Shown one piece after another: positions 33,001 to 36,000 of a stretch of 64,000 nt of DNA. The stretch is taken from contig CAKPIS010000003.1 in NCBI GenBank assembly GCA_934162425.1, forward strand, positions 15,774 through 79,773. The letters are read 5' to 3'. Position 1 is the stretch's first letter; each line of letters starts with the position of its first letter. This DNA comes from an uncultured Bacilli bacterium. GTDB taxonomy: Bacteria > Bacillota_I > Bacilli_A > RF39 > UBA660. A program made the position numbers.

Positions 33001-36000
33001 CTTTTACTAATTCTATTAAACTTTTATTATAACAGTTGCACTAGGTTTTATAGCTTCAAGCAAGTCTTTACAATTGCTATCTTTAACATAGAATGTTATA
33101 TTTCCTATTTGTGCTAGCATAGTTTTAAATATATCTTTTTCATAAGTCTTGCTATTAACTAATGAAAAATCTATTTCTTTAAGTTGTGAGCAATTAATAA
33201 ACATTTCTGTATTAGTTTTTAATGATTCTAAATTCCAATTACTTAAATTTAAACTACTTAATTTATAACATCCATTAAATATACTTGATATATCCTCTAC
33301 TTTTTCCATATTAAATCCAGATAAATCTAATGAAGTAAGTTTCATACATCTTCTAAACATCATACTCATATTAGTAACATTATTAGTTATAAAATTTGAT
33401 AAGATTAAATTTTCAAGATTAACACAGCCATCAAACATATTTTGCATATTAATTACATTTGATGTATTAAAAGAATTTACGTTTAAACTTATAAGGGATA
33501 TACATCCTTCAAACATAAAACTCATATTAGCAACTTTTATTGTATCAAAATTTGATAAATCAAGAGTAGTTATCTTTTCACAGTTATAAAACATATTTGA
33601 CATATCTTCTACGTAACTTGTATTAAAATTACTTAAATTAATATCTTCTAGCAACTTACAGTTATAAAACATACCTGATGCGTTGACTAATTTAGAAACA
33701 CTAAAATTCTTCGTATTAAATTTTTTTAATGAGGTACAATTATTAAACATATTATTGGCATTTTCTAAAACTTTAGCATTCCATGTACTTATTTTTATTT
33801 CTTCTAATAATGAGCAACCATTAAACATAACATACATTGTTGTTACATTTGATACATCAAAGCTACTTAAATCAAGTATTCCTTCTAGAGATGAACAGCC
33901 CTCAAACATAACACTCATATCTGTTACATTTAATGTGTTAAATGAACTTAAGTTTATACTTTTAAGAGAAATACATTTATTAAACATTCTAGTCATATTA
34001 GTAACGTTTGTTGTATCAAAATTTGATAGATCAAGATTAGTTATCTTTTCACAGCTGTAAAACATATTTGACATATCTTCTACGTAACTTGTATTAAAAT
34101 TACTTAAATTAATATTTTCTAGCAGCTTACAGTTATAAAACATACCTGATGCGTTAACTAATTTAGAAACACTAAAATTCTTCGTATTAAATACTTTTAA
34201 TGAAGTGCAATTATAAAACATATTATTGGCATTTTCTAAAGTTTTAGCATTCCATGTACTTATTTTTATTTCTTCTAATAATGAGCAATCATTAAACATA
34301 ACATACATTGTTGTTACATTTGATACATCAAAACTACTTAAATCAAGTATTCCCTCTAGAGATGAACAGCCCTCAAACATAACACTCATATCTGTTACAT
34401 TTGATGTGTTAAATGAACTTAGGTTTATACTTTTAAGAGAAATACATTTATTAAACATTCTAGTCATATTAGTAACGTTTATTGTATCAAAATTTGATAG
34501 ATCAAGATTAGTTATCTTTTCACAGTTATAAAACATATTTGACATATTAGTTACTTTACCTGTTTTAAATTCACTTAAATCTAAAGAAGTAAGAGACTTG
34601 CAATTATAAAACAATCCAGACATATTAACTATATTATTAGCACTAAAACCAGATAATTTTAAATTTGATAGTGAAGTACAATCTCTAAACATCCCATTGA
34701 TATTAGTTAAATTCTTTGCATTCCAACTACTTATATCCAAGTTAACTAATTTAGAACACCCATTAAACATATCTGACAAAACTGTTATTTTAGAAAGATT
34801 TAAATTATTTAATCCAATAATATTTTGTAGAGATGAACACCATTTAAACATATTTTGCATTGTTGTCACCTTTAAAGTATTAAAATTACTTAAATCTAAT
34901 ACAGTTAAGGCCTTACAATTTCTAAACATATTAGCCATTTGAACTATATTTGAAGTATCAAATGAAGATAAATCCAGCGAAGACAATTTTTTACATCCAT
35001 CAAACATACCATTCATATTACCAATTTTATTTGTTGTTGTTATTATATTATTAAACTCTATGGTTTTAGCATTAGCAAAATTTTGAAATAGTGCATATGC
35101 ACCAGATAACTTTATTTCTCCATATCCTGCTATATATAGTTCGTATAAATCGTTAGAATTATTATCTAATGTATATGCCATAACAGATCCATCTTTATTT
35201 AATGATGCATCCCATGCTTCTATAGCAGAACTTGGTACTTCAATTGTAGGCATAAATCTAATACTTTCTACTTTACTTCTATCAAATGATCCATTATTTA
35301 TAAACGTAGCATTATCAGTTCCATTTGCAAGCACAGACTCTGCTTTTATAAAGTTAAATCTAATTACTGCATCAAGATTCTTATTTTTTTCATTATAACT
35401 ATTCCATTTATATGTTATTTCTATACTTTTTTCTTCTCCCTTATTTATAAAATATGGTAACTTTTTATTTAATTCATATGTTATACCATCATTATTGTAA
35501 CTTACATTTTCAAGTAAATTTAATAACATTGGTACATTACCTGTATTTGTTATTGTAACTTGATATGTTATAGATGAGTTAGATTCATTTAACGTTATAC
35601 CTGTTTTTATTCTATCTTTAGAGTAACTACTATTATAGTTTTCAATACCATTAAAAGTATTTCCCACTAACTTTACATCTGTTATTCTAATATCTTCTTC
35701 TAATCTAAAAGATGCCTCACTAGTTATATTTAATTCCTGATTAAGTGAACTATAACCTACACTTAAAAATAATACAAATAAAAAAATTAAAGGTAATAAA
35801 ATGTTTACTTTAGAATTATTTTTATATCTTCTTCTAATCTTCATTTTATCACCTCTATTCTTTTATATTTTTACCTAAATTAATAATAACATTCACATAT
35901 AATTAATGTCAAGTTTATAGCTATCTAAATCATCACAAATAACTTTATTACATATTTTGCTATATTTATCATACTCTTCTTTATTTTTAATAGTCCAACA

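What the first reader, a model, noticed from the sequence alone, without database searches (positions are those of the whole stretch)
33540..34560. Near-perfect 471-bp tandem duplication (six LRR units) inside the BspA-type LRR surface protein gene
Two consecutive 471-bp blocks are more than 95% identical at nucleotide level and a third partial block follows. Such long perfect in-frame repeats are substrates for RecA-dependent expansion and contraction. A 471-nt unit is in frame, so slippage by one unit would keep the frame and lengthen or shorten the exposed LRR solenoid. This is a plausible size- or antigenic-variation mechanism for this adhesin-like protein. The gene carries more than 25 LRR units in total.
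Basis: seen in the sequence. Interest (0 to 1): 0.5.

Follow-up and report, generated by a model that had tools for sequence, protein, structure and literature searches.

The report
Duplicated six-repeat block in surface protein
A gut bacterium's repeat-rich surface protein gene carries a real in-frame duplication of a 471-base, six-repeat block, and other strains carry the same gene exactly two blocks shorter; this is an ordinary, slowly changing length polymorphism, not a fast switch.

Summary
The gene at window 33016-35844 (minus strand, 942 aa) is a DUF285/PARCEL-type LRR surface protein with 24 repeat units of 26-27 aa, arranged as four six-unit blocks. Blocks 2 and 3 (34077-34547 and 33606-34076) differ at 18 of 471 nt (96.2% identical, no indels). 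An 86-nt partial third copy follows at 33520-33605. The repeat is not near-perfect: the longest exact run is 58 nt.

The duplication is not an assembly artefact. The identical 2829-nt gene was assembled in at least 7 independent human-gut metagenomes.

Unit-wise copy-number alleles exist. Three other strains, about 1% diverged, carry a 627-aa allele at the same locus. It lacks exactly 942 nt (two units), and its junction lies in a 39-nt exact repeat. One low-coverage contig shows a one-unit-shorter form, which may be an assembly collapse.

Turnover is slow:
- The copies differ by dS of about 0.10, against about 0.03 between strains.
- dN/dS between the copies is 0.27.
- All short alleles share a linked 3-nt indel.
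- No length variation appears within the window's own lineage.

Block duplications recur in relatives and were already noted for PARCEL proteins in 2010. This is a new member of a known kind, of modest interest.

The parts
33016..35844 (-). Gene for a 942-aa DUF285/PARCEL-repeat (LRR-clan) surface protein. It has a basic N-terminus followed by a single hydrophobic segment (aa 13-31). There is no lipobox Cys and no LPXTG motif.
   Evidence: ORF listing and translation. Pfam DUF285 E=7e-154 in 9 stretches; TIGR02167 E=6e-149 in 17 stretches. Hydropathy and motif check. AlphaFold model: aa 250-942 forms a solenoid at pLDDT 75-95, and Foldseek top hits are TLR3, TLR9 and SHOC2 LRR solenoids.
35008..35844 (-). 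N-terminal signal/anchor plus a conserved non-repeat domain (aa 1-279). It is shared by a multigene family (82-89% identity to relatives over aa 1-266; 92% mean column identity).
   Evidence: Alignment A1. The structure model is low-confidence here. There is only a weak DUF1573 hit.
33127..35007 (-). Array of 24 PARCEL units (26-27 aa each) organised as four six-unit blocks: units 1-6, 7-12, 13-18 and 19-24. The 27-aa unit is the third unit in blocks 1-3.
   Evidence: Unit parse. Offset scan shows extra identity at 471 and 942 nt. Block 1 is 48-50% identical at amino-acid level to blocks 2 and 3.
34077..34547 (-). Copy 1 (c1) of the 471-nt duplicated unit, gene nt 1298-1768.
   Evidence: It has 18 mismatches to c2.
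33606..34076 (-). Copy 2 (c2) of the 471-nt duplicated unit, gene nt 1769-2239.
   Evidence: Against c1: 8 synonymous and 10 non-synonymous nucleotide differences, dS 0.097, dN/dS 0.27.
33520..33605 (-). Partial third copy (about 86 nt, gene nt 2240-2325). It is the downstream homology arm of the array.
   Evidence: Mismatch counts (8/86 to the start of c2, 4/84 to the start of c1) were read by hand from the and listings; one search's BLAST gives 81.7% between the c1 start and the partial third copy over a longer 219-nt stretch.
34509..34547 (-). 39-nt exact direct repeat, upstream arm (A1). It is the crossover interval that defines the 627-aa allele.
   Evidence: Exact run at offset 942, gene nt 1298-1336. 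Junction alignment with L006 and L007.
33567..33605 (-). 39-nt exact direct repeat, downstream arm (A3).
35883..35912 (-). Promoter-like site (TTGACA, 18-nt spacer, TG-TATTAT; 11 of 12 matches) whose -10 element ends 39 nt upstream of the ATG.
   Evidence: Consensus scan only. Weak evidence.

Best explanation
**What it is.** The feature is an evolutionarily established, in-frame tandem duplication of a six-unit (157-aa) super-module. It sits inside the LRR-type solenoid of a DUF285/PARCEL surface protein from an uncultured, low-GC human-gut Bacilli-like bacterium.

**Proposed mechanism (inferred).** The array has the form A-X-A-X-A', where A is an 84-93-nt homology arm. Misaligned pairing of these arms occasionally adds or removes whole 471-nt units without breaking the frame. 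The pairing could occur by unequal sister-strand exchange or by replication misalignment. The result lengthens or shortens the solenoid by six turns per unit.

**What is shown.**
- The duplication itself.
- Its presence in many independent assemblies.
- A natural allele exactly two units shorter, with its junction in a 39-nt exact repeat.
- Purifying selection on both copies.
- Recurrent multi-unit duplications in relatives.

**What is inferred.**
- The recombination pathway.
- The direction of change. Deletion from a form with 1.2 or more copies is favoured, because the short allele contains no X sequence at all.
- Any phenotypic consequence.

**Rate.** The rate is low. This is a strain-level length polymorphism, not a within-population switch.
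For: - **Repeat geometry and identity:**
- **Family and fold:**
- **Reproducible assembly:** the identical 2.2-copy gene occurs in at least 7 samples under three contig-naming styles.
- **Short allele:** a 627-aa allele occupies the same GDPD | gene | methyltransferase locus in three samples (L006, L007, L031). It is exactly 942 nt shorter and its breakpoint lies within gene nt 1298-1336, the 39-nt exact run. A de Bruijn graph of a 2.2-copy genome contains no k-mer of 41 nt or more that joins the upstream flank to the A3 tail. The contig names (k141, k119) suggest MEGAHIT-type assembly with those k values. If so, these contigs cannot be a simple collapse (inference).
- **Age and selection:** dS between copies is 0.097, against 0.027-0.035 between strains in flanking genes. 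dN/dS is 0.27. All 8 amino-acid differences fall at non-consensus positions of the unit.
- **Second lineage:** L008, a further diverged strain, also has 2.2 copies.
- **Recurrence in the family:** 17 of 125 homologues carry their own internal duplication of at least 60 aa at about 84-95% identity. The closest relatives carry 8-unit duplications of 206-218 aa. The P0002 gene has a 618-nt period at 99% identity.
- **Prior literature:** PMC2996958 already reports near-identical blocks of PARCEL domains and attributes them to recent duplication.
- **Recombination machinery:** AddA-like and AddB-like helicase-nuclease genes lie in the same window.
Against: - No read-level or long-read data were available, so within-sample heterogeneity cannot be excluded.
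- The direction of change (deletion versus acquisition of X) is not proven. The sampled lineages form a near-star phylogeny, with 3 short and 2 long deep lineages.
- The single 1.2-copy contig (L029) has 3.4x coverage and a mosaic copy, and may be an assembly collapse.
- The apparent exchanges between c1 and c2 in L015, L027, L030 and L008 coincide with regions that short-read assemblers can merge as bubbles. They are not firm evidence of gene conversion.
- No function has been shown for the protein or for its length.
Confidence: 0.75

Rival explanations
1. Contingency or size-variation locus. The repeat would be a substrate for frequent (RecA-dependent) expansion and contraction, giving within-population size or antigenic variants of an exposed adhesin.
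For: - Whole-unit, in-frame alleles exist, and there is a candidate 1.2-copy form.
- In near-identical strains, 23 of 25 within-gene differences are swaps to the paralogous copy's state at c1/c2 diagnostic sites. One case (L023) sits in an 84-kb contig whose 7 kb of flank is identical to the window.
- Three independent premature stops were seen in the gene.
- Relatives repeatedly duplicate blocks.
Against: - The copy number is the same and the gene 100% identical in at least 7 samples of the lineage, although the flanks vary.
- The copies are 3.8% diverged with a maximum exact run of 58 nt. dS between copies is about three times the strain dS.
- The short alleles share a linked 3-nt indel, which points to a single origin.
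- The copy-swap pattern can be produced by assembler bubble merging. The tract in L015 and L027 spans exactly the interval between the two 58-nt exact runs.
Confidence: 0.1
2. The short (627-aa) form is ancestral. The X block would have been imported into this gene by recombination with a foreign or paralogous allele and then duplicated. On this reading the polymorphism reflects acquisition, not contraction.
For: - The short allele contains no X sequence at all.
- Three of the five deep lineages sampled are short.
- The locus shows other signs of imported tracts: the patch at gene nt 319-587 in L015 and L016, and a paralogue-like gene in L017.
Against: - No donor was found. The best match to X among 140 fetched homologues is about 52% identity, no better than the gene's own block 1 at 48%.
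- X shares the 26-26-27-26-26-26 unit pattern and the WNAK unit position with block 1 of the same gene. This argues for an origin within the gene.
- Both long lineages (window and L008) share the positional c1/c2 differences at unit positions 20 and 22.
Confidence: 0.13
3. Assembly artefact: the duplication in the window is a mis-assembled or over-expanded repeat.
For: Short-read metagenome assemblies can mis-handle repeats of about 500 bp, and several contigs break inside this gene.
Against: - An identical sequence was assembled independently in at least 7 samples under three contig-naming styles.
- The 18 diagnostic differences, spaced less than 60 nt apart, allow unambiguous threading with 100-150-nt reads.
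- The reading frame is intact and both copies show purifying selection.
Confidence: 0.02

Closest known systems
PARCEL / DUF285 / TIGR02167 repeat surface proteins (Roske et al. 2010, PMC2996958; e.g. Mycoplasma mycoides LppQ and LppC)
   Same: - Strong HMM membership.
- Tandem units of 25-26 residues with conserved hydrophobic positions and variable hydrophilic ones.
- An N-terminal membrane-targeting segment.
- Antisense ORFs over the array.
- Occasional blocks of near-identical domains, which that paper attributes to recent duplication.
   Different: - Not a lipoprotein (no lipobox Cys).
- The host is a human-gut Bacilli-like MAG, not a Mollicute pathogen.
- There is no mobile-element association in the flanks.
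- A simple test found no excess dyad symmetry.
- Here the copy-number alleles are documented at one syntenic locus across natural strains.
BspA / LrrA / TpLRR-type bacterial LRR surface proteins (Pfam LRR_5, PF13306)
   Same: - LRR-clan solenoid and surface location.
- NCBI names homologues 'BspA family LRR surface protein'.
- Weak sequence hits in the PDB to TpLRR (6mlx) and to a 'cell surface protein' (4gt6).
   Different: PF13306 is not matched in this protein at E<=0.01. The unit is the 26-aa DUF285 type. No adhesion function has been shown.
Size-variable tandem-repeat surface proteins (group B Streptococcus alpha C protein, Mycoplasma Vlp and Vsa, Staphylococcus SasG and Aap). Recalled from my own knowledge, not tested here.
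   Same: Long in-frame intragenic tandem repeats whose copy number differs between strains and changes protein length without frameshift.
   Different: Those repeats are typically identical or nearly identical, present in many copies, and vary at measurable frequency within lineages. Here there are two 96%-identical copies, which are stable within a lineage.
Super-motif (higher-order) organisation of LRR proteins. Recalled from my own knowledge.
   Same: Repeat units of differing subtype recur in a fixed multi-unit order. Here a six-unit block occurs four times, with the 27-aa unit and the WNAK unit at fixed positions in blocks 1-3.
   Different: The family is different and the proteins are bacterial. 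The last duplication here is recent enough to be visible at 96% DNA identity.

Membership tests
PARCEL / DUF285 / TIGR02167 repeat proteins | Match to the DUF285 and TIGR02167 HMMs above the curated cut-offs | tested here: met
   PF03382 scores 503.8 bits against a cut-off of 25. TIGR02167 scores 482.3 bits against a cut-off of 30, in 17 stretches.
PARCEL / DUF285 / TIGR02167 repeat proteins | Tandem array of units of about 25-26 residues, with conserved hydrophobic positions and variable hydrophilic ones | tested here: met
   There are 24 consecutive units of 26-27 aa with the pattern MFxxCxxLxxLDLSxFxTxxVxxMxx. All 8 differences between c1 and c2 fall at x positions.
PARCEL / DUF285 / TIGR02167 repeat proteins | Dyad symmetry (palindromy) of the coding DNA | tested here: inconclusive
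   Inverted 8-, 10- and 12-mers show no excess over codon-shuffled controls (z = -0.2 to -1.2). My test is not the MEME palindrome procedure of PMC2996958. Antisense ORFs, which the paper links to this feature, are present.
PARCEL / DUF285 / TIGR02167 repeat proteins | Membrane-targeting sequence (a lipoprotein signal in the Mollicute members) | tested here: met
   A basic N-terminus is followed by one hydrophobic segment at aa 13-31. There is no Cys in the first 60 aa, so this is a signal or anchor and not a lipobox.
BspA-type LRR (Pfam LRR_5, PF13306) | Match to PF13306 | tested here: not met
   PF13306 is not among the Pfam hits at E<=0.01. Some distant homologues do carry PF13306 alongside DUF285.
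LRR-fold solenoid | Right-handed beta-solenoid with one short beta-strand per repeat | tested here: met
   The AlphaFold model has pLDDT 75-95 over aa 250-942, with strands about every 26 residues. Foldseek gives probability 1.0 to TLR3, TLR9 and SHOC2, although TM-scores are low, which I attribute (not tested) to differing curvature.
Contingency (high-frequency size-variable) repeat locus | Identical or near-identical repeat copies giving long uninterrupted homology | tested here: not met
   There are 18 mismatches in 471 nt, and the longest exact run is 58 nt.
Contingency (high-frequency size-variable) repeat locus | Copy number differs among very closely related isolates | tested here: not met
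   At least 7 samples whose flanks are at least 99.5% identical all have 2.2 copies. The only exception is L029 at 3.4x coverage, which is a possible collapse. Differences are firm only between lineages about 1% apart.
Contingency (high-frequency size-variable) repeat locus | Length heterogeneity within one population or sample | not testable with these tools
   This needs the raw reads or long reads. Only assembled contigs were available.

The most novel reading that the evidence does not exclude
The long (942-aa) and short (627-aa) forms may be a selectively maintained length polymorphism of a family of gut-commensal LRR surface proteins. In this family, whole 6-8-unit super-modules are repeatedly gained, lost and homogenised by exchange between copies. 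That would tune solenoid length, and so reach or ligand footprint, against host immunity or phage. Nonsense alleles would serve as a third, 'off' state.
Probability: 0.15. Interest if true: 0.5.

Novelty: new member of a known kind. Interest (0 to 1): 0.3.

Why it matters
This is a clean, population-documented example of how a bacterial LRR/PARCEL surface protein changes length. Change occurs in whole super-modules, with the breakpoint resolved to a 39-nt identity. It occurs in an uncultured human-gut organism whose surface biology is unknown. It adds little conceptually, because block duplication in PARCEL proteins and size-variable repeat surface proteins are both known. It does give a concrete marker (942-aa versus 627-aa alleles) for strain typing and for testing whether solenoid length matters. 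It also serves as a caution: apparent gene conversion between near-identical copies in short-read metagenome assemblies can be an assembler effect.

Tried and rejected
- **Organism search.** Two scans of genome contigs with the N-terminal domain, once as a single sequence and once as a 5-sequence alignment, found no relative. The organism is therefore known only as a human-gut MAG. Its exact SpoVS protein is named 'Bacilli bacterium' by NCBI.
- **Other metagenomes.** The metagenome-contig scan added only L008, which was useful, and two contig-end fragments.
- **Protein collection.** The exact 942-aa protein is not in the clustered protein collection. Alleles had to be found through exact look-ups of the gene and its two neighbours.
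- **TRF limit.** TRF missed the duplication in P0002 because its 618-nt period exceeds TRF's 500-nt limit. The repeat finder found it.
- **Recurrent deletion.** I considered independent recurrent deletion, because L006, L007 and L031 are not each other's nearest relatives on the flanks. I down-weighted it because all three share the (AAC)3 to (AAC)2 indel at gene nt 804-806.
- **Gene conversion.** I considered the c1/c2 state swaps in L008, L015, L027 and L030 as proof of gene conversion. I rejected them as proof because the swapped tract (unit positions 126-432) is exactly the interval between the two 58-nt exact runs. That interval is a bubble that assemblers can merge at k<=57. A mutation in a homogenised tract also cannot be phased to one copy.
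- **Site-specific switching.** I considered an invertible-promoter or site-specific mechanism, because a tyrosine recombinase lies 4 kb away. No inverted repeats flank the 48-nt upstream intergenic region.
- **Donor of block X.** None was found, either in the window or among 140 homologues.
- **Dyad-symmetry test.** It was negative.
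Full report
**1. The observation**

The finding lies inside one ORF, window 33016-35844 on the minus strand, encoding 942 aa.

Tandem Repeats Finder reports a single array at 33453-34547 with period 471, 2.3 copies, 93% matches and no indels. It is the only high-scoring tandem repeat in the 64-kb window. My own offset-471 scan gives 564 nt at 94.7% identity, covering window 33520-34554.

In register, the array is as follows:
- Copy c1 is gene nt 1298-1768, window 34077-34547.
- Copy c2 is gene nt 1769-2239, window 33606-34076.
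- The two differ at 18 of 471 positions, which is 96.2% identity.
- A partial third copy of about 86 nt follows at 33520-33605.

Other multiples of the 78-nt repeat unit give only 42-51% identity over the same array, so the signal is far above the family background. The unit is 157 aa, or six repeat units, and is in frame.

- The copies are not near-perfect. The longest exact run is 58 nt.
- The gene has 24 units, not more than 25.
- The partial copy lies at lower window coordinates, because the gene is on the minus strand.

**2. What the gene is**

The protein matches Pfam DUF285 (PF03382, E=7e-154, nine stretches) and NCBIfam TIGR02167 'PARCEL repeat-containing surface protein' (E=6e-149, 17 stretches). 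The BspA-type model LRR_5 (PF13306) is not hit. NCBI does label distant homologues 'BspA family leucine-rich repeat surface protein'.

The N-terminus is basic and is followed by one hydrophobic segment at aa 13-31. It has no lipobox cysteine, and there is no LPXTG motif.

An AlphaFold model built on 18 relatives is confident (pLDDT 75-95) from residue 250 to the end. It shows one short strand about every 26 residues. Foldseek's best PDB hits are long LRR solenoids: TLR3, TLR9 and SHOC2. The first 250 residues are modelled poorly.

The 24 units form four six-unit blocks. The single 27-residue unit is the third unit, and a 'WNAK' unit is the fourth, in blocks 1, 2 and 3. Block 1 is 48-50% identical at amino-acid level to blocks 2 and 3. 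The recent duplication therefore sits on an older six-unit periodicity.

**3. Is it an artefact?**

No. The exact protein is encoded on nine contigs. Look-ups of the two neighbouring genes gave more. In at least seven listed samples, plus four similar places not shown, the whole 2829-nt gene is 100% identical to the window. The contig names show three naming styles (k141_*, NODE_*_cov_*, MERR22 scaffolds). The flanks of these contigs differ from the window by up to 0.5%. L002 is identical to the window over 22.8 kb and is probably its source.

**4. Copy-number alleles**

The best database hit, P0001 (627 aa), is the same protein without both 157-aa blocks.

Its contig (L006) and those of P0124 (L007) and P0121 (L031) carry the gene at the same locus, between a GDPD gene and a SAM-methyltransferase gene. 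Their flanks are about 99% identical to the window. Apart from a separate 3-nt indel at gene nt 804-806, the gene is exactly 942 nt shorter.

The junction matches the window's upstream sequence up to gene nt 1336, and matches the partial third copy from nt 1298 onward. The crossover interval is therefore the 39-nt stretch that is identical at offset 942.

A 2.2-copy genome contains no k-mer of 41 nt or more that links the upstream flank to the tail of the third arm. The contig names (k141, k119) suggest MEGAHIT-type assembly with those k values. If so, such contigs cannot be a simple collapse. This is an inference.

A more diverged strain (L008) also has 2.2 copies.

One Hadza contig (L029) has exactly one unit fewer. 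Its upstream flank is identical to the window. However, its coverage is 3.4x, and its single copy is a c1/c2 mosaic (c1 at unit positions 20 and 22, c2 at 67-194, c1 at 215 and 259, c2 from 306 onward). It may be a real recombinant or an assembly collapse.

**5. Tempo**

The evidence points to slow turnover:
- Between c1 and c2 there are 8 synonymous and 10 non-synonymous nucleotide differences. This gives dS 0.097, dN 0.027 and dN/dS 0.27. All eight amino-acid changes fall at non-consensus positions of the repeat.
- Between the window strain and the three short-allele strains, dS is 0.027-0.035 in eight flanking genes. It is 0.041-0.048 in the non-duplicated parts of this gene.
- The duplication is therefore at least as old as, and probably older than, the split of the sampled strains. 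Both copies have been kept under purifying selection.
- Within the window's own lineage the copy number never varies.
- The three short alleles are not each other's closest relatives on the flanks. All three do share an (AAC)3 to (AAC)2 indel 490 nt upstream of the junction, which no long allele has. This favours one origin followed by recombination of the flanks.

Together these results point to a slowly turning-over length polymorphism rather than a contingency switch.

**6. Exchange between the copies**

In strains otherwise nearly identical to the window, 23 of 25 differences inside the gene are swaps to the other copy's state at the 36 diagnostic positions:
- L023 has two sites swapped.
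- L030 has six sites swapped.
- L015 and L027 have the whole tract at unit positions 126-432 of c1 swapped to the c2 state.

L008's two copies differ at only 6 sites, yet each differs from the window's copies at 10-16 sites. This looks like gene conversion.

I do not treat it as proof. The L015/L027 tract is exactly the interval between the two 58-nt exact runs, which a de Bruijn assembler sees as one bubble at k<=57. A mutation inside a homogenised tract cannot be assigned to one copy from short reads. L023 is the most credible case, because it is an 84-kb contig with zero differences in 7 kb of flank.

**7. Is block duplication special to this gene?**

No. Of 125 homologues of at least 300 aa, 17 have their own internal self-match of at least 60 aa at about 84-95% identity. 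Among the closest relatives (P0002-P0006 and P0008), six carry eight-unit duplications of 206-218 aa. In the P0002 gene the period is 618 nt at 99% identity.

These relatives share the N-terminal domain (82-89% identity to the window protein over aa 1-266; 92% mean column identity) and a conserved C-terminal cap, but sit at other loci. P0017 and P0012, for example, lie next to a sortase gene. They therefore form a multigene family.

**8. Mechanism**

The array reads A-X-A-X-A'. A is an 84-93-nt arm, and the 39-nt exact core lies in the first and third arms. Misaligned pairing of the arms, followed by exchange or slippage, adds or removes whole units and keeps the frame. The short allele is the product expected from pairing arm 1 with arm 3.

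The short allele contains none of X. X also shares block 1's unit pattern, and no external donor was found (best match 52% identity). For these reasons I favour deletion from a longer form over acquisition of X, but this is not proven.

The pathway is not established. From my own knowledge of E. coli and B. subtilis work, short and closely spaced homologies can recombine without RecA. The 39-nt interval and 4% divergence do not point specifically to RecA. AddA-like and AddB-like genes are present in the window at 13019-19223, so recombination machinery exists.

From general LRR geometry, each unit adds six turns to the solenoid. No function is known for the protein or for its length.

**9. Verdict**

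It is a new member of a known kind, with modest interest (0.3).

Noticed in passing
L027 (gene nt 1562 and 2033), L015 (gene nt 1681 and 2152), L031 (codon 575 of the 627-aa allele): Three different premature stop codons occur in this gene in three metagenome samples. In L027 and L015 the same nonsense change appears in both copies of the block, but short reads cannot phase it to one copy. This suggests the gene is dispensable, or is inactivated in some strains.
   Followed up: partly
window 35258-35526 (gene nt 319-587, N-terminal domain); loci L015 and L016: A dense patch of 40 differences, including a 3-nt deletion, appears in L015 and L016, while the rest of the gene is otherwise window-like. 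It looks like an imported recombinant tract and marks a polymorphic hot spot in the non-repeat domain. Other strains differ from each other at several of the same positions.
   Followed up: partly
L017 (2.5-kb contig) compared with L032 and L033: The upstream flank, including the GDPD gene, differs from the window by 1 in 869 nt. The adjoining gene, however, is 97% identical to a paralogue (P0017) that normally sits at a different locus next to sortase, DUF192 and Flp genes. This is either paralogue-to-locus conversion or a chimeric contig joined through the conserved 5' 250 nt.
   Followed up: partly
window 33683-34060 (+) and 34226-34531 (+): Antisense ORFs of 125 and 101 aa lie inside the duplicated block. 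The PARCEL paper (PMC2996958) says opposite-strand ORFs are common over PARCEL arrays. They are probably not genes.
   Followed up: no
window 13019-16402 (-) and 16386-19223 (-): An AddA-like protein (UvrD helicase domains, 1127 aa) and an AddB-like protein (PD-(D/E)XK nuclease, 945 aa) are encoded as an adjacent pair in the lowest-GC part of the window (20-21% GC). This is a double-strand-break recombination helicase-nuclease.
   Followed up: partly
whole window: 33 of the 35 ORFs of at least 250 aa are on the minus strand, and GC skew is strongly negative throughout (GC about 25%). The only stretch with positive skew is 58001-60000, where a plus-strand ORF sits at 58220-59290. This fits a leading-strand gene bias of a low-GC Firmicute or Bacilli chromosome arm.
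   Followed up: no
AlphaFold model, aa 523-564 and 680-721 (units 10-11 and 16-17 of the duplicated blocks): The model predicts two unusually long paired strands (14-16 residues) in each duplicated block, at the WNAK and FSVSKLVNASG units. It does not predict them in the equivalent units of block 1. This could be a hairpin protrusion specific to block X, or a modelling artefact.
   Followed up: no
window 26887-31420 (-), five ORFs (325, 307, 308, 256 and 166 aa); four of them and the overlapping 26887-27864 ORF were scanned: A run of ORFs lies downstream of the PARCEL gene, interrupted by SpoVS and a XerC/D-like tyrosine recombinase. The scanned ORFs have no Pfam match at E<=1e-5; the recombinase ORF (27837-28760) was not scanned here and has Phage_integrase hits on record in the related loci. 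The run is conserved in all related loci.
   Followed up: no
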